Positions 1 to 64,000 of a stretch of DNA of 64,000 nt are shown one piece after another; within the stretch, counting starts at the first letter, position 1; each line of letters begins with the position of its first letter. Origin of the DNA: Rhynchobatus australiae (lineage: Eukaryota); contig JAUZTB010000064.1 in the NCBI GenBank assembly GCA_034780895.1, positions 114,903,116 to 114,967,115 on the forward strand. Reading direction: 5' to 3'. A model generated the notes under the pieces. That model worked only from the letters and a program-made list of their open reading frames with translations. It searched no databases and was not told the origin of the DNA. A program made the position numbers and the translations under genes.

Positions 1-155
1 ACACTCCTGATGCAGGGTCTCGACCGTAAATGTGGACATCTCCACCCCCGCCTACCCCCCCCCCAACACCCACACAGATGCTACTCAAACCACTGAGTTC
101 CTCCAGCAGTTTGCTTTTAGCTCCAGATTCCAGCATCTGCAGTTTCCTCTGTCTC
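1..155 (+). mobile_element. Penelope-like element terminal repeat (pseudo-LTR) fragment with degenerate hammerhead motif
   Basis: ctgatgcagggtctcgacc...cacagatgct...gagttcctccagc...ctccagattccagcatctgcag; the same terminus is attached to GIY-YIG remnants elsewhere in the window. Confidence 0.75.
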
Positions 156-511
156 TAGAAAACAATCTATGTAATGGAATGTATAAAAAGAAAAAGTCTA
201 AGAAATTTTACATCTGTTCACAGAAGAAGTGGTTTGTCAGCATGAATTTCTAACTATCCATGATGGCAACAGCCACATTTTCCCTGAATGCTAGTCGCCT
301 GTTAAATGCAATTCTCATAGAAGCATTTCTTCACAATGACTGCATTGTTTATGTTTGAAAATAATATTTGTAAATGATGGTCATTTTCTGACATCTTGGC
401 TGTTGTCATTAAATTTGGTATAGGCTCTGTATTGTTTTGATCAAATAGACCATGAATTTATATTGTGAGGGGATTTGGTGTCAGGTATGAAGAGAGAAGC
501 ATTGAACCAAA

Positions 512-2632: not shown

Positions 2633-2646
2633 TGGAGACACAGTTG

Positions 2647-2880
2647 GAGACACAAGAGACTGCAAGTGCTGGAATCTGCAGCAACACGCAAAATGCTAGA
2701 GGAACTCAGAGGGTCAGGCAGTGTCTATGGAAGGAAATGGATAGTTGATGTTTCAGCTTGAGACCCTTCATCTAGACTGCAGTCCAGATGAAGAGTCTCG
2801 ACGTGAAATGTCAACTGTCCATTTTCCTCCATAGATGCTACCTGACCTGCTGTGTTCCTCCAGCGTTATGTGTGTTGCTC
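2647..2880. mobile_element. Palindromic (inverted-dimer) PLE-terminus element
   Basis: 2680-2779 is the indel-free reverse complement (with substitutions) of 2780-2879, centred on gactg|cagtc; each arm is a PLE terminal repeat. Confidence 0.85.
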
Positions 2881-3089
2881 AAAGTTATGCACATAATACA
2901 CCCATGATCAGAGTTGAAAATCCAGGTGCACTAGTGTAGATTACACCCAATCATATCTTATCAGCTTAAGTTCCATCATATAGTACATAAAATGTGACAC
3001 TACTTGATAGAGTTTCTCAGCACATCTCTGAAATAGATTCTTAGAGACATGATAAGAAACACTATCAAGTAGTCTCAATTGATGAGTAA

Positions 3090-3742: not shown

Positions 3743-6489
3743 AAGCATTGAATCAAACAGTGAGTGATATCTGCAATTTCTCACTAATCCAAACTATGAC
3801 CACATCCAAAAGGAATGATTTGACAATCGGCTGGCTGGCTCATCATCTTTTCATCGCCATAATGTCTGATGTTTTGTCAAAAGAAGACAAAGTTTGTTCA
3901 GTTTTACCATAGTTGAACAACTTTCCCAGTTGTGTAACCTTTCAAAATTTATAAATATTTACCAGGTTCACTTCATATTAAAAATGCAGCAATCAGCTCT
4001 CCTATGGTTTCCAAGTTCACTGTTTGTTTGGCTTTTGGGCTGAACCGATTTAAATTTGACTTGGCTGGGAAAACTTAAGTTGTAAAACACGTAAGATTTA
4101 TAATACATTAAGTGGAATATTTAGAAATAGCATAACTAAATCAATCTGGCAAACTTCTGATCTCAATTTTATTAGCAGTTAGATGAATGCTCGTCTTATG
4201 CATGGTTATAAAAGTGCATTTTATTCCTGCTTGGTGGTCTTTGATGTTGGAACATTTCTTAACCTCATGGGAAAAGCTTTGTGTCAAAGTATTGTCAAGA
4301 TGGAAAGAAGACAGCTGCTGTCCCTGTGATAATCATGAAGAATGGAATTTGCTTTGTTTTGAAGAACTAGAGGAGCTCATTGAAGACTAGGTTTCCATGA
4401 GTTTGACAGATTTGCTGTGATATATGAAAGTAGAAAAACTAGCTAATGCCAATCATCTTTGTTTAGGTTTTGGCTTTGCTGTGTCCATTTATCTTCCAAT
4501 GTCTGTAAATAAAAAGGCGTCAGAAAAAAATGGCTGTTTAGATTCTAAGATTGGGTTTGGCATTGTATGGGAATTTATTAAAACCATTTTTGTAGAACAG
4601 TAAAAATGTTCAAACAGTAAAGAACTTCAAAAGGACACAGAAATTGGAGTAAATAATAAAGGATATTATCTGGCAAATTCCAAGGTAATCCCATGTCAGT
4701 GTATTTAGGTATCGTGAAATTTCAGAGTGAAAGGCTTTACAATATTTTCTGAAGTACTCTATTAGAAGCTGGAATCTTGGATTTACTTTGATATTAGATC
4801 ATTAGTTTAAGTTCAAGTTAAAACTGGGCACAGTACATTAAACTTAGTCAATGCAACATTTGGTTTCAAATTAACATTTAGTCATCCTGCATTTTTAATG
4901 CTGCCTTACAGCTTATGATCCACCCAGTAGCAATTGGCATTTTACAGCAATGTAACTTCTGGGTGATTGGATGACACAATATATTGAATGTTTCCCTTCA
5001 GTGTTTTGGATAAAAAGTGAAATGACTCTCTGTTTTCTAACAGCTGCTGGGATTACAACTGGATGTGAAATGAGCCAGGGCAGGCTGAGTCTAGCTTCCA
5101 ATAGGTGTGAGATCACATCTCTCAATTGTCCTCAAATTCAGCACTAATCTAACAAGCTTTCACAGATTAGAATACTCTAAGAAATTCAGAACATGAGTAG
5201 TCCATTCAGTCCACACAGCTGTCATAAAAATCCATTCTTAGGATCCCACAGAGCACAATTTCATCTCCCTTCTGCCATTTAAGCATGAAGATCACCTGGG
5301 AGAAAAATGTGTAGTTAGAGGGAACAGACTTTTGTCTAAACTGTGGAGTCAAAGGTCATATTCAGGATACTGTGAAGGAGCTAAATATTCCATCTGCTTC
5401 ATGCCATACTTGACCCAGCTTGTCTGCTGCGCTGAAAGTAAAATTGCAACAGTTGCCCTGACAGCTCAAAGTTCAGTCATGGTCTAATCCAGAGCTCTAA
5501 TGACTGGCCCCATTATTGGCCTGAAAGAGGAAGGCAACCACGCCACTTTATTACTCCATATACAAAAATGAGCAGCAAAAGTTGTATCCATCCTCTTCCA
5601 CCAATCTAGTGAAGCTATACTGTGGAAAACTGGGGAAAATCAAGTTAGTGTATTATGATAAGGACTCACCATGCTGGATACTATACCCACTGGAGTTTAC
5701 ACCCATTTACACAGTGATGAGGACATAGATGGAATTTCTCTCCCATTCCACTATTTCATAGCCAAATTGTGTCTGAATGAGAGACTTCTCTGCATTATTA
5801 CTGCCCAAAGCTAATTGACTTCAATTTCACATTGAGGGCAATGACAGAGCACCCAATGAAAATGGGCAAAATCCTCCCTAAAGGATTGGGCACCAACCTT
5901 AATGATGCCACATTTGGTAATCTTAGTGAGAAAGCAGCGAATGTTGACAGTACTGTCAAACCAAACCTATTAGCAATGGAAGAGACCCAGCACAGTGAGA
6001 ATTTCCATTTTGGTTTAGATTTCTGAAGGGCCAGGAAACCCATGAGTACTCCTCTAAGCCTCCACACAAGTAAATCTTGCACTCCCCATTCTGACCAAGA
6101 TTTCTCTCTGAGGGGCTTACTTGTGCTGAGAACCACNNNNNNNNNNTGAAGTTCTCCAACAACTGTTTCTGAGCTGCACAATGCCAGCAGTCAGCAGCAA
6201 CATATTGCCAGCTACCAGCCCTTGGGTTGAGAAGTTGGGAAGCTGTCTGCTGCTGAGGTCAGACCACTCCCTCATCTCTGCATTTCACGGTCTTCTTCCA
6301 GGTAAATCGTTGAGGTTTACATCCTAGTCCTTCCATCATCAATTCCTTGTGCAAAAATTAGATAATTTGCACAATCAGTTTAGCCTCTCGGCTTCAAATT
6401 CCCCATCTACTCAGAAATTTCTGTCATCACCGCCTCTTCCAATAAAGGACATCTGGCTCTTCAACTATCAGAGTGTCTTGTCGATCTGG

Positions 6490-6700
6490 AATGAAGGGCC
6501 ATTCAGCTGGTCTTGCCTATCACCTGAACTCACCTATCACCTGCCTGCATGTGTTCCTCCCCTCCCCCCACTTCTTTATTCTGGCTTCTGCCCTCTTCCT
6601 TTCCAATCCTGATGAAGGGTCTTGGCCCGACACATCAACTGTTTATTTCCCTCCTTGGATGCTGCCTGACCTGTTGAGTTCCTCCAGCACTTTTTGTGTG
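6490..6700 (+). mobile_element. Penelope-like element 3' region with terminal repeat and hammerhead-like motif (6604-6641)
   Basis: C/T-rich cacctatcacc tract, then caatc-ctgatga-agggtcttggccc-gacac-atc-aactg, then ggatgctgcctgacctgttgagttcctccagca. Confidence 0.8.
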
Positions 6701-8061
6701 AAACCCTCAAGTATCATGCAGTATTCAGTGTGACAGCTTATTTCACAACTGTCAGCTTACCTATTAATTTCTATCAATTATCTGTTGTAACATACCCTTC
6801 CCGTCTTGGATTTGAAAGAGTTTTTAAATCAAATGCATTTCAANNNNNNNNNNNNNNNNNNNNNNNNNNNNNNNNNNNNNNNNNNNNNNNNNNNNNNNNN
6901 NNNNNNNNNNNNNNNNNNNNNNNNNNNNNNNNNNNNNNNNNNNCCTTTTTACTATTTTTTGCATTTTTTTATATGTATAACTTATTTAAATCTATTTGAA
7001 TGAAGACCAGAGGCATTTAAATACATCTTTAAAGGCCTCTGATAATGGTGAGCTGTCAAAAGACCAGCAGGGCAGTCTAACCTCTGATGCTCAGTTGCAA
7101 CTCGTGGCCCGCTTCACCTCATGGGATAGCTATATCAACTAGAGCTCCCGGACAACTGGGCCTGAAGGGCTACAAGGAGTAACTTCAAACACAGAAAAAG
7201 GGTGGATGACAAGCGCAGGTGATGGGCCAGGTCAAGCATGATCTGACCCAGTGGTTCTTCAAACTGTCAGCAACATAGACATCTGCTCATTTGGAGTGGA
7301 GAGCAAGTCAGCAACATGTACACAAAATAAAAAAAACATTGTTTCATAAGTTCACATTACTTCAATATGGTCTACTTATTTTGTTGACACAATGCAGTTG
7401 TTTGGAGCACTACCTCTCTACCTTTGGATCCTAAATGAAATTCTATGCAAAAAAAAAATACCATTCTCATTGAGATTGTGTTATGAGTTTTGCTGTTCTG
7501 GCCCAGCTCCTCTATAATTAAGAGATAAGGTCGACAATTCACAGAGAAGTCACCATGAGTGATAAAAAATACTGTGGGGAGCATTCTTCTGAGGCAGTGG
7601 TTTAAGAACAAAAGAAGAAAGGAGAGGGTATAATGGTTTAGGGAGAAAATTATTGAGATAGTTCCCAATAAACACATTTTAGTCAATACCTTGTCCACAT
7701 ATTCCATCTATTTTTTTTAACCAAGCATTTGGTCAGGCCAACTACTATTTCCTTCTCTAGCTTACTAACCATTTTTATTGATTGTGCCCCTCTGAAAGAG
7801 TTTTTAAATCAAATGCATTTCAAACAATACTGTGGTTTTTGATGTTCCATTCTCCATCATTACTAGTTTTTTTTTATAAATTTCAATTTCTTCTTATTTT
7901 TAGTAATGATATACTCCATTATACTGTGGTCTGTAGATGAATTTATTTGTCTGATCTGGATGTAGAAATGACATGGTTTGAGAGTTGTGCAGTATTGAAT
8001 AGATGTTAATATGCCATCATCTCCACCAACAATGTGTTAATGGGTCCATTTTGCTTTTCAG

Positions 8062-8193
8062 GTGGAAATAACTTTGCAGGATATCAATGACAACCCCCCT
8101 CTGTTTCCAAGTGACGCACTGGATCTCATCATTGAAGAAAACATTGGGGATGGATTTAGAATATTACAGCTGTCAGCCACAGATGCGGATGAG
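8062..8193 (+). CDS. FAT4: Protocadherin Fat 4, internal coding exon (132 bp, phase 0-0)
   Basis: Acceptor ttgcttttcAG|GTG and donor GAG|GTAAGT. Translates VEITLQDINDNPPLFPSDALDLIIEENIGDGFRILQLSATDADE with cadherin DxNDN and DxD motifs; closely matches vertebrate FAT4 as I recall it. Confidence 0.93.
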
Positions 8194-8639
8194 GTAAGTC
8201 CTATAACTCCTGATTTAGTATCTGTTTTCCATAAAGTATTATAATTCCATGTTTTTCATCCCATTTCCTCAACTTCCACCTTTTTCAATGAATTTCTCGT
8301 AAGTGTTTGGTGAAGGGTTGAAGACCAGTCTTTGTTTAACGGTGAAAAGAATCTCTTCAACCACACAGATTTCCTTGGTAACTTTACGATGGGTCAGTTT
8401 CAGCTGCCCACAGCCAATTGAAGGCATAGTCAGAGTTAACCGTGTTGCCTAAGAGACCATAGTGGGAGGTTATATGATGCCTTTGTAAGGGAGAATCATA
8501 GAGAGATACTGCACACCTCTCAGGAGACTGAGCAAACAATGGCAAAGTGATTTGCTGGCCATCAGTTTGTGCAATCTAAGCAGGACTCTGCTCAAGATAA
8601 ATTGAAGGGTGAGTGAGGGGAGGAAGAGAGACAAAGGTC

Positions 8640-9560
8640 ATCTCTGCCAACGCTCACTCCCCATCATGTGATACTTTCCCAAGCACGGGATAAAAAAGCT
8701 GCCCTTTTACCTTTTCCCTTCTCACCAAGAAGAGAACCAAACAATCCTTCCAGGTGAAACAGTGATTCACTTGTACTTCTTCCAGTTTTGTGTAATGATG
8801 CTGACAATGTGATCTCCTCTACTTGGGAGAAGCAGATGCAGGTTGGGTGACCACTTTGTGGAACACTTCCATTCCACTCTCACTCCCACTCTGATCCATC
8901 TGTATTTCATCTCTTACACCATTCCATTGAAGTCCAAGGTAGGCTTGAGGCACAGCACCTTTACCTTCAGTGTAGACATGTTGCAGCCCTCAGAATTCAA
9001 CATTGAAATTATTAATTTCAGATAACTAACCTTTTCTGTTTTTTTTAAACAGGGCAGTTCCGATGAAAGTTCATCAGCCTATAACGTTAGCTTGGTTTTT
9101 CACTGTCCTCAGTTACTGCCTGACCTGTTGGGTATTTCCGGTATTCTCTTTTATTTCCAGCAAGTGCAGTGTTCTGTATCTCACACTTCCAGTATTGTTT
9201 ATTTTCTGTCTCTTTTGCCCCCATTTGTTTCCTTTTATTTGGATCTCTTCCAAACAATCATTTGCAATTACTAAGCCTTCATCCACCGTAGAGCCAGCAC
9301 CAATATCATTTGTAACATTTGTATCTTATTCTCCACCATGTCACAGCATTGCCTTTTCTCTCTTCACCCTGCCCCTCCCACTCCAACAGACAACATAAAA
9401 CATACCCCACTTCTCCACAACTTAAACCATACTTGTTTTCTGACTACTTAGTTCCCATGAACGGTTTTTGACCTGAAACAATAATTCAGTTTTTCTCTCC
9501 AGATTTTGGCAGCATTTTCTTTTATTATTTCAGACTTCAAGTAACTAGGTTTTTTTTGCT
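8640..9560 (+). mobile_element. Decayed Penelope-like element: GIY-YIG endonuclease remnant followed by two tandem terminal repeats
   Basis: Broken frames give FQVKQ*FTCTSS..CDLLYLG..LGDHFVEHFHS; terminal repeat copies lie at about 9055-9180 and 9450-9560. Confidence 0.75.
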
Positions 9561-11379
9561 TTTAAAATCATTGTTTATTTGTTTTTCAAACTGCTTCAAT
9601 TTACCTTTTTTGTTTTGTAAATGAGAATACATAACTGGCTAACATTACAGAAATGAGCTCATAATTGTAAATGTAAAACATAAATGGGTGGTCTTTGCAA
9701 TGAAGACCACCCATTTCTTATCCTAAAAGACTTGTGCAGCGAGTGTGGGAATTTAAGTTGCTTTATCATNNNNNNNNNNNNNNNNNNNNNNNNNNNNNNN
9801 NNNNNNNNNNNNNNNNNNNNNNNNNNNNNNNNNNNNNNNNNNNNNNNNNNNNNNNNNNNNNNNNNNNNNAGCGAGTGTGGGAATTTAAGTTGCTTTATCA
9901 TTGAAGAAGATGTTGCTGTGGTGCACATAGTAATGATTCTCTTTCTGCTTCAATAGCAGAAACTTCAGAATATCCCAAGTTTTCTATGAAGGTTAAATGA
10001 TAGGATTGGAACTATTTATTTTGGAAGATGCTGTCAGAGACAAAGCAGACTAAACCAATGTGCCATTTGGTGCAATAATTTGGTATAGCAGATCACATAT
10101 CAAAATTAACAGTATCATACCTGCTTTATATTGATAAAAATGACAGTCATGAGGTGATCATTTCCCTGAAAGATAATAGTTTAGGAATTGATGTGTCTTG
10201 CTCTTCTTTAGGTGTAGCTCGTGCAAAGCCTCCAGTTTTATTCATGGGACTGTTTGTGCTCAATCTGTGTTTGCATTGATTCCACTACTGTTGTCAAGAG
10301 GCCACCCTTTTGCCCTCCTGGGCAGATGTTAGCAAGTGCTGGCATGCTCTATTCAGGATTCTTCTGGAGGCCTCACTGCAATTTTCCTGAAATAAATAAC
10401 AGGGTTTAGATTTAATTTAACCAACTTCCCCTATTTGCTATTCAGTTTGGTCAAATAAATTGGTTCAGTTCTGTGAAAACAATCAAACTTGCAAGTCCAG
10501 AAAGAATGTCAATTGTTAAGGAATATGGCTTTGTTCATACAGTGCTCTATGTGCCTTCTATAGAAGAGAAAGGAGATTTCAGATATCTTGGAAAAGTCAG
10601 AGAGGACAGAAGGCAAATGTTGCCCTCTGTTCTTGAATTCCTTAAAGTCTTGTTTCTCTCCCCTCTTTGGATTGGAGAGCTTGAAAGCCCCAGGCAGCAA
10701 GATAAAAAAGGCCTTATGAGGTAATTGTCCTTACTTTCCAAAGCTGCTTATGCGGCTGGTGTTCATTATGAAACGGATGAAACAACGAAGTCTAAGCTGA
10801 AGCATTAAAGTGTGCAGTAAATGCAACTGCACAGAAATTCCTCATTCAGATTTATCACTGTCTGTACAATGACAAACAAATATTCCAAAAATCTGAGGCA
10901 CCTGTATATACAAGCCCTGGAACGTGATGCCTCTGGTCATAAACACTGAACAAGTATACAGGAAGAGTTACAACTCTTGTGAAAATATTTAGCTGCACAC
11001 ATTATTGGTTAGAAATGGCCCATTGCAGTGGTGCGCCCCTTTTATTAGGAACTGGTGTTAGGAATGTTCAAGAGAGCAGAGATATCTCAGATTATTGTTA
11101 GCATTCGTGAATTGTCCAGTAAGTGGTGTGGTAGTTAAGAAGATGTTATGATGGTATTTATAGTAGATCCTCTTCTGTTATTTCATTACCAGAAAATTTG
11201 CAATATGCCAGATTCATGCTTCCTATTCTACTGTCTTTATAAGTCAGGAATAGAACTTATTTTGAAAAATGTGCTGGAAAATTAAGAAGGTGACCAAACC
11301 AATATGCCATTGCAATTCCAGCAGCATCTGGCAGGAGACATTTAAGGAGATACGAAAGGGGGAAGATGATGGACCAATT

Positions 11380-32867: not shown

Positions 32868-33090
32868 CTAGAGAAACAAAGGACTGCAGATGCTGGAATC
32901 TAGATGAAAAACAACAACATGCTGGAGGAACCCAACAAGCCAGGCAGTATCCATGGAGGAAAGCAGATGGTCAATGTTTTAGGTCAAGACTTCCTGAAGA
33001 AGGGTTCAGATTTAAAATGTTGACCGTCTGCTTTTCTCCACAGATGCTGCCTGGTCTGCTGAGTTCCTCCAACATCTTGTTGTTATTTTA
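32868..33090. mobile_element. Palindromic PLE-terminus element with 14-bp target-site duplication
   Basis: TSD ttagcagagtaatt at 32854-32867 and 33091-33104; inverted arms atgctggaggaac...aagcagatggtcaatgtttta and taaaatgttgaccgtctgcttt...gttcctccaacat. Confidence 0.88.
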
Positions 33091-33957: not shown

Positions 33958-35880
33958 AAAACAAATAAAACTGCATTTGCTTGAATCTGAAACAATAAAC
34001 AGAAATTTTGGAAGAATTCAACCAATCAAGCAGAATCTGTGGAAAGAGAAGCCAGTCCACGTTTTGGGTCATCAACCCTTCCTCAGAACTAGAGAAAGAG
34101 TGGAGAGTTCACAGTTTTCAAAGAAGAGCTTGGGGGAGGACGAAGGTATACGGAGATAAATTATGATAGATCAGGTGATGAGCATGAGTACTGACCATTG
34201 AAAAGTGGTGGGAAAGGGACATGGGCATAATAATGGGAAACGATGAGAGAGCAATTTGCCTGAAGTTGGAGAATGTAACATTCATTCCAGANNNNNNNNN
34301 NNNNNNNNNNNNNNNNNNNNNNNNNNNNNNNNNNNNNNNNNNNNNNNNNNNNNNNNNNNNNNNNNNNNNNNNNNNNNNNNNNNNNNNNNNNNNNNNNNNN
34401 NNNNNNNNNNNNNNNNNNNNNNNNNNNNNNNNNNNNNNNNNNCCCTGCGGACTGAGCACAGGTTCTCTGCGAAGTGATGAACCAAACAGCATTTGGTTTC
34501 TCCAGTGTAGAAGAGGCTACGTTGTGAACACCAAATGCAGTAGACCAGATTGGAAGAAGTGTAAATGAATCACTGCTCCACTTAGAGTGATTGTTTGGGC
34601 TCCTGGATGGTGGGAATGGATAGGTGTTACATCTCCTTTGGTTGCATGGGGAGATGCTGTGGAAGGGGGTGCTGAGTGGGGACAGAGACGTGGACCAGGG
34701 AGTCGTGAAATGAGCAGTTCCTGGAAGGAGAGGAGAGGGGAGGAGGTGGTGGAATCATGTTGGAGCTGGTGAACGTTTGCAAAGGATAATACATTGAATG
34801 CAAAGCCTGGTGGGGTGGAAGGTGAGTGCCGAGGAACTTTATCTTTGTGCTGTCCCAGCGGAGGGGAGGGGGCGGGGTGAGAGCAGAAGTGCAATAAGTA
34901 GAAGAAATGCAGTTGAAAGCTCCATCCACTATGGTAAAGAGGAAGCTATGTTGTAGGAAGAAGGAGAACGTCTCAGAGGTACCAGAGCAAAAGGCCTCAT
35001 CATTGGAACTAATGTAACAGAGACAAAGAAATAGCAACAAAGGAATGGGATCTTTACAGAAGGCAGGGTGGGAGGATGTATAGTCAAGGTAGCTGTGAGA
35101 GTATGTGGGCTTGTAAAATACATTAATGGCTTGTAAAGATGTTCATGGTTAACCTATCTCTTGGGATGCAGACAAAGAAATCCATAAAGAGGAGGGAAGT
35201 GTCAGGGATGGGTCACATAAATGTGAGAGCAGGGTGGAAATTGCCAGCAAAAGTGATGAAATTTTTGAATTCTGTGTGGAATGTGGCACCCATGCAGTTG
35301 TTAATATATTGTAAAAAAACTGAGGAAATGGTCCCAAATTACTCTGGGACAAGGACTGTTCCAGGGTATCCAACAAAAAGACAGGCATAGCTCAGGCTCA
35401 TGCGAGTTCCCATAGCTACACCTTTAATCTGGAGAAAGTGGAATCNNNNNNNNNNNNNNNNNNNNNNNNNNNNNNNNNNNNNNNNNNNNNNNNNNNNNNN
35501 NNNNNNNNNNNNNNNNNNNNNNNNNNNNNNNNNNNNNNNNNNNNNGTGGAATCAAAGGAGAAGTTGTTTAGTATAAGGACAAGTTCCACTGATCAAATGA
35601 ACATGTTATTGGAGAGGAAATGGTTGGGCTTCAATTTGAGAAAGAAAGGGAGGGCACTCAGACCTTCCTGATATGCCATGGAGGTATAAAGGGATTGAAC
35701 ATCCATGGTGAAGATGAGCAGTTGGGAGCAGGGAAATGGAAATGGTCAAAATAGCAGAGGACATCAGAGATGTCATGGATGTATGTGGGAAGGGATTGTA
35801 TGGGAGGGTAAGATAGAGTCAAGCTAGGAAAAATGTTTGGTAGGGCAAGAGCAGGCTGGAACAATAGGTCTACCAGGAAT
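33958..35880 (-). mobile_element. Decayed Penelope-like retroelement (RT + GIY-YIG region + terminal repeat)
   Basis: Minus frames give PIVPACSCPT, IQSLPTYIHD, FTMDVQSLYTS (RT motif A) and FLQIKGVAMGTRMSLSYACLFVGY (motif B'); terminal repeat with hammerhead-like motif at about 34053-34090. Confidence 0.85.
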
Positions 35881-37022: not shown

Positions 37023-37302
37023 AAATTGTGCTGAATTGCATGTTATGCACTATTTACAAATTAAACAATGGAGAAAATGGATTTTCTCATATTTTTGGGT
37101 TCAAGTCTTTTTGTAACTCTACATAGTAATCGATCATGCAGAAAATATACAGAATGACAATCAGCATCTGAACGTGGATTTTTTTTCCCTTTGCTTTATT
37201 CCACTGATTAAATGTCATCTGATTTTAATTGAATTACATTGTACAAAGCCATCTTTTAAACACTTGATGAGCTAATTATGGTTTCTCTCTTTCTTTTTCC
37301 AG

Positions 37303-38225
37303 GACTGAATTCTCAGTTGGAATACAGCATTGCATCTGGAGATTCATTGCAGTATTTTAATATTGACAATAATGGTGTTTTGAGTGCCAGGCGAGAGCTA
37401 GATCGGGAAAGTCAGTCATTCTACAACCTGCTAATTATGGCTCATGATTTATCATTGCTGCCTGCAAGTAGGCTTACAAGCACAGCACAAGTCTCTGTTA
37501 TTCTTCTGGATGTCAATGACAACCCACCAAGATTTATTTCCTCAAAAATGGCATACATGCAAGAAAACTCTCCCATGAACACTATTGTCTATAAAGCACA
37601 AGCCACTGATCCTGACAGTGGACCAAACAGTTATGTTGAGTACACGTTACTGAGTCACTCAGCAAACAAGTTCAGTATTGGAACAATAGATGGCACACTA
37701 CGTCTAACTGGTGAACTTGACAGGGAAGAAGTCTCCAATTATACATTGACAGTGATTGCTACAGACAAGGGTGAGCCTCCACTCTCTTCATCAATGGACA
37801 TTACTGTTATTGTACTTGATGTGAATGATAACCCTCCTGTCTTTAAGCAACTTCTCTATGAAGTTGAAATTAGTGAAAACACACTTAGCGGCATTGATCT
37901 CATCCAGGTCANNNNNNNNNNNNNAGATGAAGGAACTAATGGTCAGGTCCGGTACCATATCGCCAGCGGAAATCTGAACAACGATTTTCGACTTGATTCT
38001 GTCACTGGTGTAGTATCAGTGGCCAAGCAACTTGATCGTGAAACACGACCCTCGTATTCTCTGACTGTCCAGGCAACTGATCGCGGAAGCAGCCCACAAA
38101 CTGCCACAGCTGTAGTGAACATAAATCTCACCGACATGAACGACTTTATTCCTATCTTTGAACTGTCACCCTATACGATGCATGTGCAGGAAAATGCACA
38201 GAATCTGCCAGTGTCCATTTTGCAG
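37303..38225 (+). CDS. FAT4: Protocadherin Fat 4, internal coding exon (923 bp, about three cadherin repeats)
   Basis: Acceptor ttctttttccAG|GA (phase 1) and donor TTGCAG|GTTGGT (phase 0). ORF 37278..38261 has repeated LDRE / DVNDNPP / ATDPDSG motifs. A 13-N gap at 37912-37924 preserves the frame. Confidence 0.95.
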
Positions 38226-38389
38226 GTTGGTGCTATAAATCTTCTACTTGATCTGCAATAATTCTTCCATTTTTAAGTAAAATTAATGTTGTGATGAAAT
38301 CTGAAGTGTATGTGGTGTAGGTGCTGGTCAGCTCCTTGTATTTATCATAAAAGCAAAATATACAGTAAATCATACTGGTTTATGAGTTG

Positions 38390-39185
38390 CAAAAATAACA
38401 AATTGCTGGAAGAACTTAGCAGGTCAAACAGCATCTGTGCAAGCAAAGGGATATTCTACATTTCAAGTTAAGACTCTGCATCAGCACTAGGAGTGTAAAG
38501 GGAAGGTAGCCAATATATAAAAGTGAGAGGAGGGGTGAGACAGATGCTTGTAGGTGCCATGTGGAGCATGATGAGGGGAGGATGATAGGCAGGTGGAGCC
38601 AGGTAGATGAGACTGAGGCTGATAGGTGGAAACAGATAATGGAGGGATGATGGGCAGATGGAACCAGATGGGGAAGGAGATAAGAAAGGTAAACCAAAGG
38701 AAAAGAAACCCAGGCAGATAGGTATGTGGTGATGGGGAGATGGATCCAGGTGGAAGAAGGTGACATGTCTTGGTAAGAGGAAGGGGAGGCTTAGAAAAGA
38801 TAAAGAGACCCTGGATGGACTGGTGAGAGTGGGAAAATGATACAGAGAGTGTGGGTTACCTGAAACTAGAAAAATCAATGTTTGTACCTTGGGCTGTAGG
38901 CTAATCAAGCTAGTTAGTGGAGAAGGCTGAGGATAGACAGATTGGTGTGGAAATGGGAAGGGGAATTGAAATAACATACAGCCAGAAGCTCAAGATGGCT
39001 GTTGTGAACAGAGTACAGGTGCTTTGCAAAACGGTCACCTCGTCTCCGCTTGGTCTCACCAATGTAGAGTGGGCCACATCACGAACACCGAATGCAATAG
39101 ACCAGATTGAAGGAGGTGCACGTAAATCTGCACCTCACCTAGAGGGTTGCTTAGGCCACTAGATGGTGGTGAGGGAGGAGGTGTT
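38390..39185 (-). mobile_element. Penelope-like element 3' part (GIY-YIG remnant + UTR + terminal repeat)
   Basis: Minus frame VRCRFTCTSFNLVYCIRCS*CGPLYIGETKRRRGDRFAKHL is the Penelope GIY-YIG signature; terminal repeat at 38390-38490. Confidence 0.88.
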
Positions 39186-45049: not shown

Positions 45050-45850
45050 GAGCCACATCTTCTCTTCCCCACCCTTTCCGCCTTCCACAAGGACTACTCC
45101 TTCCATGACTCCCTGGTCCGCTCATCCCTCCCCACTCACTCCTTCCTGACCCCTGGTATTTTCCCCGCAACGTTTGCTTTTACACCTCTTCCTTCACCAC
45201 CATCCAGAGACTGAAACAGCCCTTCAGGTGAGGTAAAGATTCACGTGTACTTCCTCCAACCTTGTCTACTGCATTCAGTGCTTCTCTACATTGGCAAGAT
45301 CAAGCACAGACTAGGTGACAGATTTGCAGAGCACCTGCACTCTGTCTGCAATGGCCATCCTGAGCTCCAGTTGCATGCCATTTCAACTCCCCTTCCTACT
45401 CCCACACCGACCTGTCTATCCTCGTCCGTCTCCACTGCCAGGGTAAGGCCCAAAGCAAACTGAGGATCAACACCTCATATTCCACTGGAATATTCAACCC
45501 AATGGACTGAACATTGAATTTTCCAATTTTAAATAGTGTTCCTCCCACCCCCAACCAATCCTCCCATTTTCATTCCCTTTCCCATATATCCCTCCAGTCC
45601 CCTTCTTCATCCCTACCTGGCTTGATCTGCCCATCATCCTTCACGCCTCCTCAGTCCACCTACCACCCATTCTTCCTCTTTTTTTACTGGCTATCTCCCC
45701 TCTCCATTCCAAGTTCTGATGTAGAGTTTCAAACAGAAATGTCGACAATTCCTTTCCTCCAACAGATGCTGCTTGACCCCTTTGAGTTCCTCCAGCAGAT
45801 TGTTATTGTTTGTGCTCCGGATTCCAGCTTCTGCAGTCTCTTGTATCTCT
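45050..45850 (+). mobile_element. Penelope-like element 3' part (GIY-YIG remnant + terminal repeat)
   Basis: ORF 45245..45463 LYIGKIKHRLGDRFAEHLHSV; terminal repeat gttctgatgtagag...gaaatgtcgac...ttccagcttctgcagtc. Confidence 0.88.
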
Positions 45851-48800
45851 TCTTCAGGTAAATTCTCCAACCCAAGTGGTTATGAACAGCTATACCTTTG
45901 TGGCAACATGGACTCCATGAGACATTCAACAATAGAGCACAATCAAAGGCTTCCTTAAGAACAGCTATCCTGAAGTTTGGAACTTATAAATTTGCACATG
46001 CAAATTCAGGAATCCTGAATTTACAGGAAACTGATGACAGTTACTCACAGGACTACCCAGGATGCCTGTAAACACAGGGCCACTTTTCTCAAGTAAAACC
46101 AGCATCCACTATTCAGTCATAGCTTGCCACCTTGTACAGCCAGCCCATCACACCGCCTTAGAAACACATGAACCATCACTTCTAATGCATCCAAATCCTC
46201 TTTGAATGTGCTCCATCTCCAACACAAGCGCATATGATTCACCTCATCCTTTGAACTGTCTTCTTCACAGAATTTTTGCATTGTTTCAGAACTTACTGTC
46301 TGCATTTAAACTCCACAATTTTCAATGTCTTTTTATCTGACATATGAATAATTTCATTTCTCGCATGCTATTTAGACAGTTGTTTTAGCTGAAATAACAT
46401 GCAGATGCTTCAGGGAGAATAAATGGTCCTTGCAAGTACAGTCTGTCTTTGAGGCAGTCTGAAGGGATTGTACATAAGACATTGTGAAGTGCTAAGAAAT
46501 GTCAAGCATATGCTTCTTTGACAAAAAATTGAACACAAGCCAGAATGCTGGGATGATCATTATTTTGAGTCTAGGTATTATTTAGATGGGTTTGGAAGTT
46601 GTGCTTAGTAAAGAAGCTGCAGTGGCTAATGAAATGTGCTTCCTCATTTTACATACCAATCTGTTCAGGTAGTTGCGTCTATTTCCATTGTTAATTTAGA
46701 AGGTAATAGTTCCCTTCTCTAAGTGCAGATTAGAACAGTGGAAATTTTGTTCTGATGTTCCTGCAGATGTCAGAGCATGTGCCTGGAGAGATGAACAAGT
46801 CATAATGTTTCTGTCAGTTTCTAATCACACAGAAAAAGAGCATTTTTATTGCTTTCAGCAGAATTTCAGATCCATCTAAAAACACGCTATTATTTCCCTC
46901 CATTGGTAATGCATTAAAGAACAAATTGAGTTTCTTCAGAAGTCATGTTAATACAATATCAGCATGAAAAGAAATTTACAACATTTAAGGAGCCTAGGTG
47001 TGAACTATTTCCTTGAAAGTTGCAATAAGGACTNNNNNNNNNNNTTTGTCTTATAAATATAATTGAAAGAATGTTTTCCCTCCCCACCCTTTTTTGTTTG
47101 CAGTCTAAATAAATTGTAGGATTACATCTTCAACAGTTCTGATTTCTGTGGAGATTTGCCAATTTAAGCCTCAAAATTGAAACAGCTATTTCTTTATGGA
47201 GTTAATTCATGCATTATTTTTATCTATTTGCAATTGTTTTTTTTCCCTTTCCTATTGCATGTAATCACAGTAATTCTTTCCTGTCAAACACCAAAAACTT
47301 GTCAATTGTGACAAGTACTTTATTTGTGCACTGACAATATGGTGTCAATTTTGGCATTTAATTGACTGTGCAGTGGAAACGCTAGCCAATCATCTATCTC
47401 AGCAACAAGGCCACATCTGTGGTTATACCTTCCTAGCAACCTTATCACTAAGTGGTATTCAGCATCCTGATGTAGATTGGGGTTTGGATGTCATGGTGGC
47501 ATCAGAGGCCAACTTACTTTGGCTGCGATGTGCATCACTCCTCTTTTATTATGGATCCTGTCCATCTTCTACTCCTCCTCCTCATCCAAAGAGACTCTGT
47601 CCTCTCTGGCTTCTTGTGCAGAGTACAGAAGACCACTACTATTCTGAAGAGTCTGGCTGGTATATTTTGAAAGGTAGTAACAGATCTGTCCATTCACCTA
47701 AAGACCACCTTCAACAAGCTGATCCTTTTTTTTTCAGACAGGTTATTTTCTTAGTTGGTGGCTTTTGTTTTATTGTTTCTGAGCCCCGTTGCTTCACAAG
47801 TTGTCATCTGCCATTTTTAAGAGTTTATGCCTTTGAATAACCAGTCCTAAAGTCGGTTCAGAGATGTGAAGAAGTCAAGGAGAGTGCTCTCCACATATGA
47901 ACTTGCATCAGGTATGGCAAGCAGGGACGTGCCTCACTCATCCCCCACCATCCCCGACAATCATCTAAACTAAATGTGTATTTATGATGTATGTGCACAC
48001 ATTTGTCCTGCAACATTAAGAATGCATATGGGTACCTCTTGAAAAGATGGTAAAACTAAAGTCCTGCACACCCCTGACCACACAGGAACAACCTCACCTG
48101 CAAAAAAGTCTTCTTCTGGGTACTGACCAGGCAGGTGATCAAAATGAAAGGCTTTGTGGTTTAGGTGTGCACCTCGTCGTACTATTTCAGCCAGTGACAT
48201 ATTGCACATGTGGGAAGCCAGCCAGAGCCGATACATGAGCTTCTGTGCTTTCTAATTGGCCTCACCCATAGATTTAGTTGCCTTGGAGATCTAGGCATCA
48301 GTCAGCTGTTTGATGCCTTTGTATGTTGCCCTCTGAGAACTTGCATAAGCCTGGAAGAGTGCCGGGGCATAGGTGTTGAAGAACAGACATTTTTGACAAT
48401 GACTCGAAAGGTGTGGCTACTAAGTAAAACAGGTACAGGTCTTGTTCCAGATGCTGTCAATGCACTGACATAATGAGCCTCCTCAGACATTGCTTTTCAA
48501 ACATCTTGAAGAAACAGTGTAGCAAAATGAAAAGTAGATCACTAATCACAATACCAGCAGGATGGCTGCACAAGTATGGAAATGGAATGAATACATCAGC
48601 TTTGAAAATCATGCAAGTACAATATCAGAAAGGCCTGTTCCCAGCCCTGGAGGCAGGGCAAGTTGAGTGGAGTGGGGTGGGGTGGTGTGAAGTGACCAGG
48701 AAATTTGGGCCAGACCATTTTTTATTGCACCTAGGTAACTCCTTGATGAAGGAATTATGTGTTGATTTCTCTAAATCAAGGGGGTGTGCTTGAGTAACAG

Positions 48801-48949: not shown

Positions 48950-49460
48950 TCGCACACCTCTTTCTTTCCCAACCCAGCCTCTGTTACCCAGTTTCCCCAC
49001 CCCCATCTTGATTCAATCTTCCTATTACCTGCACTCTACTCATTCAGTCTCCCATCCACTCCCCTTCCTCCACTGTTATAATCTTCCCACAGTCCCTCCC
49101 TTATCTGGTTTCACTAGTCACCTTTTCTTATCAGATTCCATGATCTGAAGTCCTTGTTGTGTCAACTATTCACCTCCCAACCTCTGTCGCTATCTAACCT
49201 CTCCCTCCCCCACTTAGTTCCATCTGCCCATCAACTCTTCCTCATCTGGATCCACCTATCGCCTGCCAGCTCCTACCTTCCCCTTCCCCCTCATCTCTTT
49301 GTGCTGGCTATTTCCTCTTTACACACTCAGTCCTGATGCAGAGTCTCAACCCAAGACATGGACTATTCCTTTGCCTCCAGATGCTACCTGACTCGCTGAG
49401 TTCCTCTAACAGTTTGTTTATTGCTGCAAATGCCAGCATTTACAATCTACTGTGTCTCCA
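48950..49460 (+). mobile_element. Penelope-like element UTR + terminal repeat
   Basis: C/T-rich tract with tggatccacctatc, then cagtcctgatgcagagtctcaaccc...agatgctacctgactcgctgagttcctc. Confidence 0.75.
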
Positions 49461-51024: not shown

Positions 51025-51808
51025 CAGATGGCGATGAGGAGACGTATAGAAGTGAGTTAGATTGGCTGGTTGAGTGGTGTCCAACAACAACCTCACACTC
51101 AACGTCAGCAAGACCAAGGAATTGATTGTGGACTTCAGGAAGGGGTGTTTGGGGAACACACACCACTCCTCATTGATGGTGAAAAGGATGAGCAGCTTCA
51201 AGTTCCTGGGTGACAGCATCTCAGAGGATCTATCTTGGGCCCAATGCATTGATGGAATCATGAAGAAGACATGCCGGCAGCTCTGCTTCATTAGGAGTTT
51301 GAGGAGATTTGGTATATCACCAAAGCCTCTTGCAGATTTCTACAGATGTACATTGGAGAGCATTCTAACTGCTTGCATCACGTCCTGGTATGGGGGCTCC
51401 AATGCACAGGATCGCAAGAGGCTGCAGAGGCTTGTAGACTCAGTCAGCTCCATTATGGGCACAACCTCCCCCCCTCTCCCCCCGGCTGTAGAGGACATCT
51501 TCAAAAGGCAGTGCCTCAAGAAAGCGGCATTAACAACCTTCTCCATCCAGAACATGCCCTCTTCATGTTACCACCATCAGGAGGAGGTACAGGAGCCTGA
51601 AGACCCACACTCAACATTTTAGGAAAAGCTTCTTCCCCTCCGCCATCAGATTTCTGAATGGTCTATGAACCCATTAACACTACCTCAGTATCCCTCTTTT
51701 GCACTATTTATTTATTTTTAAATTATAGTAATTTTTATGTTGCACTATATGGCTGCCGCAAAACAACAAATTTCACAACATATGTCAGTGATAATAAACT
51801 TGATTCTG
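51025..51808 (+). mobile_element. 5'-truncated Rex1/Babar-type LINE (RT C-terminus + 3' UTR)
   Basis: ORF 51074..51622 NNLTLNVSKTKELIVDFRK..FKFLG..ISEDLSW..FYRCTLESILTACITSWYG; tail cagtgataataaacttgattctga. Confidence 0.88.
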
Positions 51809-54800: not shown

Positions 54801-55210
54801 ATGGGTTTCAGTTTTACAGCTGTCCTAAATCGATTTTGCCCATGTCGGAAAATACACAAGAATCACTTGATGTGGTAACCATACCTCCAGTGTATTGTAA
54901 TAAATGGCATCAGAAGCACATAAGACTGATAAGAAAGAGCAATTACTAAAAGTGGGGAGAGAGAGGAAACTAGTTCAGCTATTCATAGTAATGAAAATAT
55001 GTATGTGCAATGGATTTTTGAATTTAATAATATCATGGGAGCTCATTCGTATGTAGTGGTGTCCATAAGTCAGATGCATGTTACCCAGAAACAGCCTGTA
55101 CACTACATCTATTGATTCCACTCTATCAACTTTCTCTGTAACCCCATCAAAGGATCGAGCAAAATTGTCAAACATGATTTATCTTTCATAAAACTATGCT
55201 GACTAGGTTA

Positions 55211-55400
55211 AAACACAAACAAATTCTGGAGGAACTCAGCAGGTTAGGCAGCGTCTATGGAGTGAAATGAACAGTTGACATTTCAGGTCAAGACCCGTCA
55301 TCAGAACCTTCATAGCTGCAGCCTGACCTGTTGAGTTTGTCCATCATTTTGTGTGTGTTGCTCCAGATTCCAGCGACTGCAGAACCTTTTGTGTCCCCTT
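55211..55400. mobile_element. Palindromic PLE-terminus element with 11-bp TSD, nested in CR1
   Basis: TSD tgactaggtta at 55200-55210 and 55401-55411; inverted arms ggaactcagcaggttaggc and gcctgacctgttgagtt. Confidence 0.88.
55272..55308 (-). ncRNA. Minimal type-I hammerhead ribozyme motif (best-preserved core in the window)
   Basis: Minus strand GGUU-CUGAUGA-C-GGGUC(UU)GACCU-GAAAU-GUC-AACUG: intact CUGANGA, GAAA and GUC cleavage triplet; helix I GUU/AAC; helix II hairpin. Activity is not shown. Confidence 0.65.
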
Positions 55401-56366
55401 TGACTAGGTTATTCAGCTTTCCTAAATAATTATTTACTTCCTCTTTGGTTATTGACTCAAGTGTCTTGCCAACAATAGATGTTACACTATCTGGCCTATA
55501 CAGTAGTTATTTACCTTCTGTCTTCCCTTTTTGAAGAAGGGAGTCATATTAGCTGTTTTCTAGATTTCTGGTACCATCTCAGAATTTAGTGAGTTTTGAA
55601 AAATTTCAGCCAATGGATCCACAATCTCTGTGCCACTTCCTTCCAAACCCTTGGGTGCAACCCATCAAATTCCAGCCATTTGTCTACCTTTAGCTCTGTC
55701 TTTTTCTCTAATACTTTATTCCTTGTTAGTGGGATTTTTACAAGTTCTTCCCTGTTATTTGTAATTAACCCATCTGTTATCTTACGGATATTTGCAGAAT
55801 CTTCCATCATGATGCCTGTTGCAAAAGTGTTGATTGAATAAGTCTGCCATTCCTTTGTTTCCTGTTATTATTTCACCAGCCTCATTCCTTCGAAGTCCTA
55901 CACCAACTTTAGGTGCCTTTTTCCTATTTATATATCCATAGAAACCCTCACTGTTTGATTTGATATTACACACAAGTTTCCTCTCAAAATCAATTCTCTC
56001 CCTTTTTTATAAACATTTTAGTCTTTTGTTGCCGCATCCAATAAACTTCCCTGTTTCTCTGGCCTCCCACCAGCCCTACTTGTCAACTTAACATTATCCT
56101 TTGTTAGACCTTGAGAGGTCACATTTTGGGGGCCTATGGACTACTCCCAGGTATGTCTTCTTTCCCCTGCTATTCATGATTTCAACCCAATGCGATTCTC
56201 TATTACTATTCACTTCCTCTACATCATGACTCAACACCACTCTGATTAACTGCCTTGACTAACAACACTATCTACCTCCTTTCCCTTTGGCCTGTTCTTT
56301 TGGAACATCATATAACATGGAATATTGAGCACCCAGTCCTGGTCACCCTGCAACCATGTTCCTGTA

Positions 56367-63542: not shown

Positions 63543-64000
63543 AGAAACACAAGAAAGATTGCAGATACTGGAAATCTGGAGCGACACACAAAATGCTGGA
63601 AGAACTCAGCGGGTCAAGCAGCATCTACGGTGGGAAACGGACAGTCAATGTTTCGAGTTGAGACCCTTCTTCAGTACTGTAAAGAAAGAGGGGAAATGGC
63701 CAGTATAAAAGGGTGGGGAGAAGGGGTGGAGCGAAAGGTGGCGGGTGACAGGTGAATCCAGGTGAGGGAAGAAGATGAGCAGGTGGGGAAGGAGGGATCC
63801 AGGCTGGTGCCCCCTCCAGATCCCGCCCCGGCTGCCTTCAGGCCAAGACCTCTCATGCTGCCACTGGGTCTTACTTCTCCTCCTCTTCCACCACCACTCC
63901 CCACCTCTGGCCCCTCCAATCCTCAACCCTTCTCTCACTGCTCCAACCCTCTACACCTCCCCTGACCCAGCTACACCCCCTGCCATGTTTCCACTATCCC
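63543..64000. mobile_element. Penelope-like element end: inverted terminal repeat (minus, 63543 to about 63800) joined to + strand sequence
   Basis: Minus-strand terminal repeat plus UTR, then a switch to C-rich + strand sequence ending PCHVSTI, resembling the N-terminal part of elasmobranch PLE ORFs as I recall them. Confidence 0.7.
63642..63679 (-). ncRNA. Minimal type-I hammerhead ribozyme motif
   Basis: Minus strand CAGUA-CUGAAGA-A-GGGU(CUCA)ACUC-GAAAC-AUU-GACUG; core boxes are intact, with substitutions at the cleavage triplet and the helix I closing pair. Confidence 0.5.

What the first reader, a model, noticed from the sequence alone, without database searches (positions are those of the whole stretch)
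55272..55308. Hammerhead ribozyme motif in a repeat terminus present at least 12 times in FAT4 introns
Seen: aligning copies at about 7, 2742-2817 (both strands), 6604, 9055, 9451, 32990, 34053, 38455, 45712, 49328, 55272 and 63642 gives the consensus CAGTC-CTGATGA-A-GGGTCTCGACCC-GAAAC-GTC-GACTG. It has both hammerhead core boxes, a helix II hairpin, a GUC triplet and a closing helix I. Pairing is kept across variants: helix I CAGUC/GACUG vs GUU/AAC; helix II GGGUC-UU-GGCCC, GGGUU-GAU-GACCC, GGGUC-UU-GACCU. Helix III is reduced to a self-complementary ACGU. Known: Penelope-like retroelements carry minimal hammerheads in their pseudo-LTRs that are thought to cleave as dimers. Inference: this elasmobranch PLE family has dispersed hammerhead motifs at roughly one per 5 kb here, and the 55272 copy keeps all core boxes.
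Basis: partly seen in the sequence, partly recalled or inferred. Interest (0 to 1): 0.7.

Follow-up and report, generated by a model that had tools for sequence, protein, structure and literature searches.

The report
Decayed hammerheads at Penelope retrotransposon ends
This is a real but decayed copy of the tiny self-cutting-RNA motif known from the ends of Penelope-like jumping genes, one of an estimated few hundred thousand likely dead copies in this genome; the extras are that copies start at the motif's front edge, not its cutting site, and that two successful subfamilies carry changes predicted to cripple cutting.

Summary
The motif is real. It is the minimal type I hammerhead (min-HHR) near the 3' end of a Neptune-type Penelope-like element (PLE), typically about 300-350 nt behind an RT + GIY-YIG frame. 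Such motifs are described for fish PLEs (PMC4209133). Tail copies occur once per 5.2 kb genome-wide, so nothing is FAT4-specific. They decay neutrally, and 0 of 143 random copies pass a min-HHR descriptor. The 55272 copy keeps the core boxes but has four CpG transitions, is solitary and antisense to the cadherin exon, so it is likely inactive. Its apparent covariation is decay; true compensation exists only between subfamilies. Extras: 5' ends pile at helix I (74 of 277), not at the cleavage site (15 of 277); inverted pairs join a short-tail and a long-tail arm (25 of 29); two master subfamilies carry U4A or A9C cores.

The parts
55272..55308 (-). Minimal type I hammerhead motif, subfamily A1, decayed; predicted scissile bond between 55277 and 55276
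55212..55307 (-). HHR-bearing arm of the insertion: 5' end at motif position -3, 3' end at +94 (short-tail class)
55307..55399 (+). Inverted, 5'-truncated partner arm (motif positions about +41 to +131/136, long-tail class), no HHR
55199..55210 (.). Left copy of a 12-nt target-site duplication (one mismatch)
55400..55411 (.). Right copy of the target-site duplication
2645..2883 (.). Head-to-head pair of A2 (U4A) copies, both starting at -5 (junction 2779/2780), tails +131 and +96
6516..6701 (+). A1 copy with 3' UTR; GAAA box broken
8624..9180 (+). GIY-YIG remnant (8624-9022) followed by a B2-type HHR copy (9053-9092) and tail; end approximate
9449..9488 (+). Strongly decayed B-like HHR copy
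32870..33090 (.). Head-to-head pair (junction 32990/32992), tails +130 and +96
33960..35877 (-). Long degraded PLE copy: RT 35877-34873, GIY-YIG 34722-34447, 3' UTR, B1-type HHR 34091-34053, tail
38387..39138 (-). GIY-YIG remnant (39138-38944), 3' UTR and subfamily C (A9C) HHR 38489-38452
45068..45860 (+). GIY-YIG remnant (45068-45533), 3' UTR and subfamily C-derived HHR 45711-45748
49240..49460 (+). Copy with A9C core (49328-49365); end approximate
63543..63768 (-). Copy with 3' UTR; keeps both boxes but first pair of helix I broken (HHR 63679-63642)
3..157 (+). A9C-core copy at the window edge, GAAA box broken
37260..38261 (+). Host cadherin exon, consistent with FAT4; sets host sense as + so the 55272 HHR is antisense

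Best explanation
The 55272 motif is a decayed minimal hammerhead in a short inverted insertion derived from the 3' end of a Neptune-type Penelope-like retrotransposon, and it likely does not cleave. Mechanism. (1) Shown: the motif sits behind the RT + GIY-YIG frame, in the segment that forms the pseudo-LTR in PLEs. (2) Inferred from PMC4209133: in the parent RNA two such motifs would form a slow dimeric ribozyme through the palindromic ACGU; the monomer of an intact copy is predicted to fold into a rod that hides the cleavage triplet. (3) Shown: insertions run through the cleavage site and end at two positions, about +95 and +130. Inferred from the Anolis PLE in vitro (PMC11167929): these are the two internal RT start sites on uncleaved RNA. 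(4) Inferred: the sharp pile of 5' ends at -5/-4 is run-off at the 5' end of the RNA, which matches an initiator-like YYANWYY (motif recalled); a nick on each DNA strand primes one short-tail and one long-tail cDNA, joined head to head. (5) Shown: after insertion the copies decay neutrally.
For: PLE: HHR typically about 300-350 nt after the EN stop in EN-linked copies (range about 80-600); RT motifs upstream; long relatives carry PF00078, PF26215 and, in one, PF01541; C-x4-C-x2-C linker of the Neptune type (PMC8557442 passages). Uncleaved template: of 30 copies chosen by the upstream UTR, 28 run through the site, 2 break off earlier and 0 end at GUC; 5' ends at +24..+31 are 15 of 277, no excess over flanks (p=0.69). 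5' pile: 74 of 277 at -8..-1 vs 13 at -24..-9 (p=3e-23); 70 of 74 are true junctions. Two 3' end classes; 25 of 29 classifiable inverted pairs are short+long (14.1 expected, p=3e-5). Neutral decay in 47 copies chosen by UTR or EN: non-CpG core 23/419 vs tail 116/1828 changed (p=0.57); G12 12/46 vs loop G 17/47 (p=0.37). Focal copy folds no better than shuffles (z -0.76); an intact copy folds as the rod.
Against: No cleavage assay was run. The focal copy is the only window copy that passes a relaxed descriptor, and U.G wobbles could still allow a dimer. No intact pLTR-ORF-pLTR unit was found in my loci, so the 5' pLTR and the RNA start are inferred. Pfam gave no hit on the degraded frames themselves (0 of 9 proteins; 0 of 2 window RT frames), so the family call rests on motifs and homologues. 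The same CAG is also a good 3' splice site. A G before A(-4), expected from cap copying, is only 8 of 20 (inconclusive).
Confidence: 0.85

Rival explanations
1. The short unit (-4 to +130) is a non-autonomous, SINE-like element that is transcribed from its own promoter at many loci and copied in trans; the 5' pile is simply its full length.
For: Sharp shared 5' end in all six subfamilies. The two arms of inverted pairs share private variants 2.3 times more often than random copies (23/1322 sites, 0.0174 vs 0.0077; 0 of 500 controls reach it), which points to many source loci.
Against: Short and long (UTR- or EN-linked) copies belong to the same subfamilies. No tandem arrays were seen: 0 of 30 loci have a second same-strand core within 1.5 kb. 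Gene conversion between arms or heterogeneous autonomous sources also give shared variants.
Confidence: 0.25
2. The 5' pile reflects splicing or fold-back at helix I rather than the RNA start: a 3' splice site lies at the 5' end of helix I in D. virilis Penelope, and the nascent cDNA end can snap back on helix I.
For: Polypyrimidine tract plus CAG at this spot in all subfamilies; same placement in D. virilis (PMC4209133); single junctions such as L176 fit snap-back.
Against: The AG is mostly retained (of the 30 young loci, 8 start at about -6 to -2, most at -4 or -5). No shared first exon is evident upstream of 71 junctions (11 hit the UTR set, most or all explained by inverted partners or short chance words). 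Subfamily C, whose helix I is only 3 bp, still ends at -5/-6 in 7 of 22 copies. Partner arms start at scattered positions.
Confidence: 0.2
3. The 55272 copy is a functional, possibly domesticated intronic ribozyme acting on the host pre-mRNA.
For: It keeps both core boxes, GUC, 4-bp helix II and 4-bp helix I, alone among 16 window and 143 random copies.
Against: It is antisense to the host exon, solitary, with G.U at 10.1-11.1 and at 15.2-16.2; its changes are the CpG pattern; 12 of 222 copies in sets enriched for young copies pass the same descriptor, so one pass is expected.
Confidence: 0.04
4. The resemblance to a hammerhead is chance.
For: No Rfam hammerhead hit; only two compensated pairs, each perhaps a single event (3 pairs with double change vs 3.6 shuffled).
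Against: All 15 core positions, the extra base before 10.1, the palindromic helix III and the position behind a PLE frame match the published min-HHR.
Confidence: 0.02

Closest known systems
min-HHR in pLTRs of metazoan PLEs, incl. fish Xena, Poseidon and Neptune (Cervera and De la Pena 2014, PMC4209133; read main text parts 1-2 of 4 and part 1 of 3 of supplementary file 2; supplementary file 1 not available)
   Same: Type I topology, no helix III loop, palindromic 15.2-16.2, extra base between A9 and G10.1, mostly single dispersed motifs from truncated copies, opposite-strand pairs, several consensus families per genome.
   Different: No shark or ray in its Table S1 or in a search of file 2. 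Copy number here about 2e5 spanning the motif vs 4,000-9,000 intact motifs reported for coelacanth and frog (not the same measure). U4A and A9C master states are not in the parts I read.
Poseidon of Anolis carolinensis, PAc (Frangieh et al. 2024, PMC11167929; read parts 1-2 of 4)
   Same: Two 3' end classes about 35 nt apart downstream of the HHR; insertions from uncleaved RNA; no RNA-seq ends at the cleavage site; both DNA strands primed.
   Different: Neptune-type linker here; the frame that opens at the AUG inside the core stops after 22 codons in A1, whereas the PAc ORF starts there; the 5' pile and short+long pairing are not in the parts I read.
EN+ PLE insertion structure (Craig et al. 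2021, PMC8557442; passages only)
   Same: Strong 5' truncation, adjacent inverted truncated copy, 30-40 nt tail at one end, CX2-5CxxC linker in Neptune.
   Different: No partial tandem with an upstream pLTR found in my loci.
Non-LTR retrozymes (Li et al. 2026, bioRxiv 10.64898/2026.07.22.740005; read part 1 of 5 and passages)
   Same: Type I HHR, PLE origin, reported in one chondrichthyan.
   Different: Retrozymes are tandem repeats with an HHR in each unit; these copies are solo or inverted and linked to EN and RT remnants.

Membership tests
EN+ Penelope-like element | RT followed by C-terminal GIY-YIG endonuclease upstream of the motif | tested here: met
   no direct Pfam hit on degraded copies
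EN+ Penelope-like element | 5' truncation, inverted partner copies and optional 30-40 nt tail | tested here: met
   53 of 151 copies have an inverted partner; 3' ends at about +95 and +130
EN+ Penelope-like element | Partial tandem forming a direct pLTR upstream of the ORF | tested here: inconclusive
   Only one locus reached the N-terminal region and it ends in an N-run
Neptune clade | CX2-5CxxC zinc-finger linker between RT and EN | tested here: met
   C-x4-C-x2-C in L011, L067, L054
Neptune clade | RT phylogeny with reference Neptune elements | not tested
   No named reference PLE proteins were fetched
min-HHR (type I), subfamily masters A1, D, B1, B2 | CUGANGA and GAAA boxes, NUH triplet, helix II, helix I, palindromic 15.1-16.1 | tested here: met
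   the palindrome in D and B is inferred through CpG decay
min-HHR (type I), subfamily masters A1, D, B1, B2 | Compensatory changes in helices I and II | tested here: inconclusive
   Two double changes between subfamilies, few independent events; none within subfamilies
min-HHR (type I), subfamilies A2 and C | Canonical core | tested here: not met
   U4A in 22 of 31 A2-tail copies vs 5 of 73 A1-tail; A9C in 27 of 31 C-tail copies vs 1 of 73
min-HHR (type I), copy at 55272 | Watson-Crick palindrome for dimeric helix III and a same-strand partner motif | tested here: not met
   AUGU instead of ACGU; no second same-strand copy nearby
min-HHR (type I) | Self-cleavage as dimer or with protein help | not testable with these tools
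   Needs in vitro assay; RNA-seq shows no pile of ends at the site but is a weak test
Non-LTR retrozyme | Head-to-tail tandem units each with an HHR | tested here: not met
   0 of 30 loci with a second same-strand core within 1.5 kb; I did not search the whole genome for arrays

The most novel reading that the evidence does not exclude
In this PLE radiation the hammerhead fold works mainly as a non-cleaving structure at the very 5' end of the element RNA, for protein binding or for pairing two templates. Two lineages lost core bases independently (U4A, A9C, the latter with its own endonuclease and a 3-bp helix I) and still made tens of thousands of copies, and a dimeric enzyme uses one RT start site per DNA strand, leaving short+long inverted pairs. 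The genome would then hold a natural mutagenesis series for the open question of what PLE hammerheads do.
Probability: 0.22. Interest if true: 0.6.

Novelty: new member of a known kind. Interest (0 to 1): 0.28.

Why it matters
The motif itself is ordinary for PLEs. Its value is as a large natural data set on an unsettled point: Craig et al. 2021 call HHR function in EN+ PLEs unclear, and Frangieh et al. 2024 found cleavage dispensable for insertion in vitro. Here genomic copies show the same in vivo (templates uncleaved), point to where the RNA likely starts, show one RT start site per arm in inverted pairs, and offer two amplified core variants that can be assayed with 40-nt RNAs. If U4A and A9C are dead, cleavage is dispensable for bursts of transposition; if they cleave as dimers, they are natural core variants not found in my searches.

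Tried and rejected
Rfam scan: no hammerhead family hit. Pfam on degraded PLE frames: nothing. PDB sequence search with the thumb-EN frame: one chance hit; with the cadherin exon: generic cadherins, not diagnostic. Atlas look-ups gave no result. The two long open frames were largely N-runs. Footprint of cleavage in copy boundaries: none at either end. Copy-level covariation: none. Shared first exon upstream of the 5' pile: not evident. Cap-derived G at junctions: 8 of 20, inconclusive. A required GTYRAC palindrome across the cleavage site: weakened by subfamily D, which changes N17 alone. TSD survey: 10 of 98 short copies vs 2 of 98 controls, weak because pairs were not handled as units. Sequencing runs: no RNA holder listed for the query stretch; three raw RNA runs of one study (organism A, not shown to be the window's species) were laid instead. 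Lunse et al. on dimeric PLE hammerheads was not held, so U4A or A9C may be described there; I know it only from the review PMC6765202 (passages). Subfamily tree of six short references is too weak to order events.

Full report
Observation. The motif lies on the minus strand at 55308->55272. In the own genome the 31-nt core has 363 exact matches and a degenerate version 15,261, both with control 0. In 100 arbitrary 10-kb tiles from large contigs (828,544 readable bases) the tail occurs 159 times, once per 5.2 kb. Scaled to the readable part of 2.23 Gb this is about 3.5e5 tail copies, both arms of inverted pairs counted; 84 of 151 span the whole motif. So the window is typical and the host gene is incidental. 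A + strand cadherin exon at about 37260-38261 fits FAT4, which makes the 55272 motif antisense.

What it is. Upstream of long copies lies a GIY-YIG C-terminus with a C-x4-C-x2-C linker, and before it RT motifs. The motif typically follows about 300-350 nt after the stop. Long relatives of the frame carry PF00078, PF26215 and PF01541; the degraded frames give no Pfam hit themselves. In the window four motif copies follow EN remnants (9053, 34053, 38452, 45711), one also with RT. The linker is the Neptune mark named in PMC8557442 (passages). Minimal hammerheads in fish Neptune, Poseidon and Xena pLTRs, mostly as single dispersed motifs and some as opposite-strand pairs, are described in PMC4209133. 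The 55272 insertion is a fold-back of about 190 nt: an HHR arm (-3 to +94), an inverted tail arm (+41 to about +131) and a 12-nt target duplication. Positions are counted from C3; the cleavage site is at +27/+28.

Subfamilies and covariation. From 403 deduplicated tail copies, 381 without N were clustered and resolved into six subfamilies. Between subfamilies, pair 2.1-1.1 goes from C-G to U-A (B1, B2) and pair 10.1-11.1 from G-C to G.U to A-U. On 49 copies ranked by tail identity, 79% of cells pair and 21 cells show double changes (11.4 shuffled), but only 3 pairs do (3.6 shuffled): few independent events. Within the GUC/GAC subfamilies compensation is at chance or below.

Two master states break the core. 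With subfamilies assigned from the tail alone, U4A is in 22 of 31 A2 copies against 5 of 73 A1, and A9C in 27 of 31 C copies against 1 of 73 (33 of 216 copies unassigned). In the first 100 matches listed (one contig, counted by eye) U4A 25 exceeds the transition U4C 3, and A9C 13 exceeds A9G 2. C has its own EN (6 linked fragments, 34-52% identical to the A1 query) and only 3 bp of helix I. A9C can also be read as a C inserted after G8 with loss of the extra base. PMC3088659 (section 8 and passages) says most core changes cut activity drastically and mentions a natural U4C; I saw neither U4A nor A9C in the text, but its Figure 5 was not visible. Searches found no report of them; the most relevant paper (Lunse et al.) was not held. 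The youngest subfamilies, D and A1 (median non-CpG divergence 0.04 and 0.07, n=7 and 9), are canonical; A2 and C are older (0.10, 0.15).

Are the copies alive? In 47 A copies chosen by UTR or EN, not by motif or tail, non-CpG core positions changed at 23/419 against 116/1828 in the tail (p=0.57), and G12 at 12/46 against 17/47 for a loop G. Of 143 random copies 13 keep the core text and 0 pass a relaxed descriptor; 12 of 222 pass in sets enriched for young copies. The focal copy passes, but has four CpG transitions (loop, C11.1, C15.2, G1.1), no partner, and folds no better than shuffles. I rate it inactive at about 0.85-0.9.

How the copies arose. Of 30 copies picked by the upstream UTR, 28 run through the cleavage site and none ends there. 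Among 277 copies (score 50 or more, no N at the junction; 151 from tiles and window, 126 from tail-selected loci) 5' ends show no excess at the site (15; p=0.69) but pile at -8..-1 (74 against 13 in the 16 nt before; p=3e-23). Seventy of the 74 are real junctions, 43 with unrelated flank and 27 with an inverted partner. 3' ends are bimodal at about +95 and +130. Of 34 head-to-head pairs 29 were classifiable and 25 join one of each class (14.1 expected). Arms share private variants above control. In three RNA runs of one study from a coded organism, depth about doubles at -5 in two runs and rises about 1.6-fold in the third, loose ends pile there, both strands are present, and no pile of molecule ends is listed at the cleavage site. 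These reads likely come mostly from copies inside host transcripts, so they repeat the junction result and test cleavage only weakly.

Mechanism, committed. PMC11167929 shows for an Anolis PLE that RT starts at two internal sites downstream of the HHR, that both DNA strands are cut and extended, that uncleaved RNA is the main template, and that the HHR cleaves only with the protein. I infer the same here. Priming in the downstream pLTR gives long, variably truncated copies; priming in the 5' pLTR runs off the RNA end at -5/-4 and gives the 100-135 nt stumps; one start site per strand gives the short+long inverted pairs. The RNA start is inferred from the step and from an initiator-like match (recalled motif). 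A splice site at the same spot, as in D. virilis Penelope, and a self-copying short unit are the rivals.

Earlier findings. After forming this reading I saw eight notes of this scan on other genomes. They reach the same family and several note the 5' pile; they are unchecked notes, not support. One prompted the TSD check. A word search for the core variants found nothing.

Verdict. A new member of a known kind: real motif, known class, dead copy. Interest 0.28, carried by the boundary statistics and the two core-variant lineages, which make the open question of PLE hammerhead function testable with short RNAs.

Noticed in passing
window 51074-51622 +: 182-aa stop-to-stop frame with a weak ALKBH8_N match (E 6e-4), from recall typical of a LINE-derived fragment.
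   Followed up: no
window 9679-9719: Short near-perfect hairpin giving weak MIR319 Rfam hits on both strands; unexplained, probably a repeat remnant.
   Followed up: no
L029:1501-1569 and other A1 copies: The AUG inside the CUGAUGA box opens a frame that stops after 22 codons; a second AUG just after a pyrimidine-tract CAG in the tail opens a frame that stays open to the end of the tail, a candidate ORF start.
   Followed up: no
L024:1531 (run X23): One variant copy supplies about 2,900 reads with an unusual tail after helix I, so a single copy lies in a highly expressed transcript.
   Followed up: no
L037:3-2488 and L056:1115-8041: Long inverted PLE arrangements with RT and EN on both strands; L056 reaches furthest towards the N-terminus before an N-run.
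   Followed up: partly
   Followed up: partly
L083:400-700 -: A copy appears twice on either side of an N-run, likely an assembly duplication.
   Followed up: no
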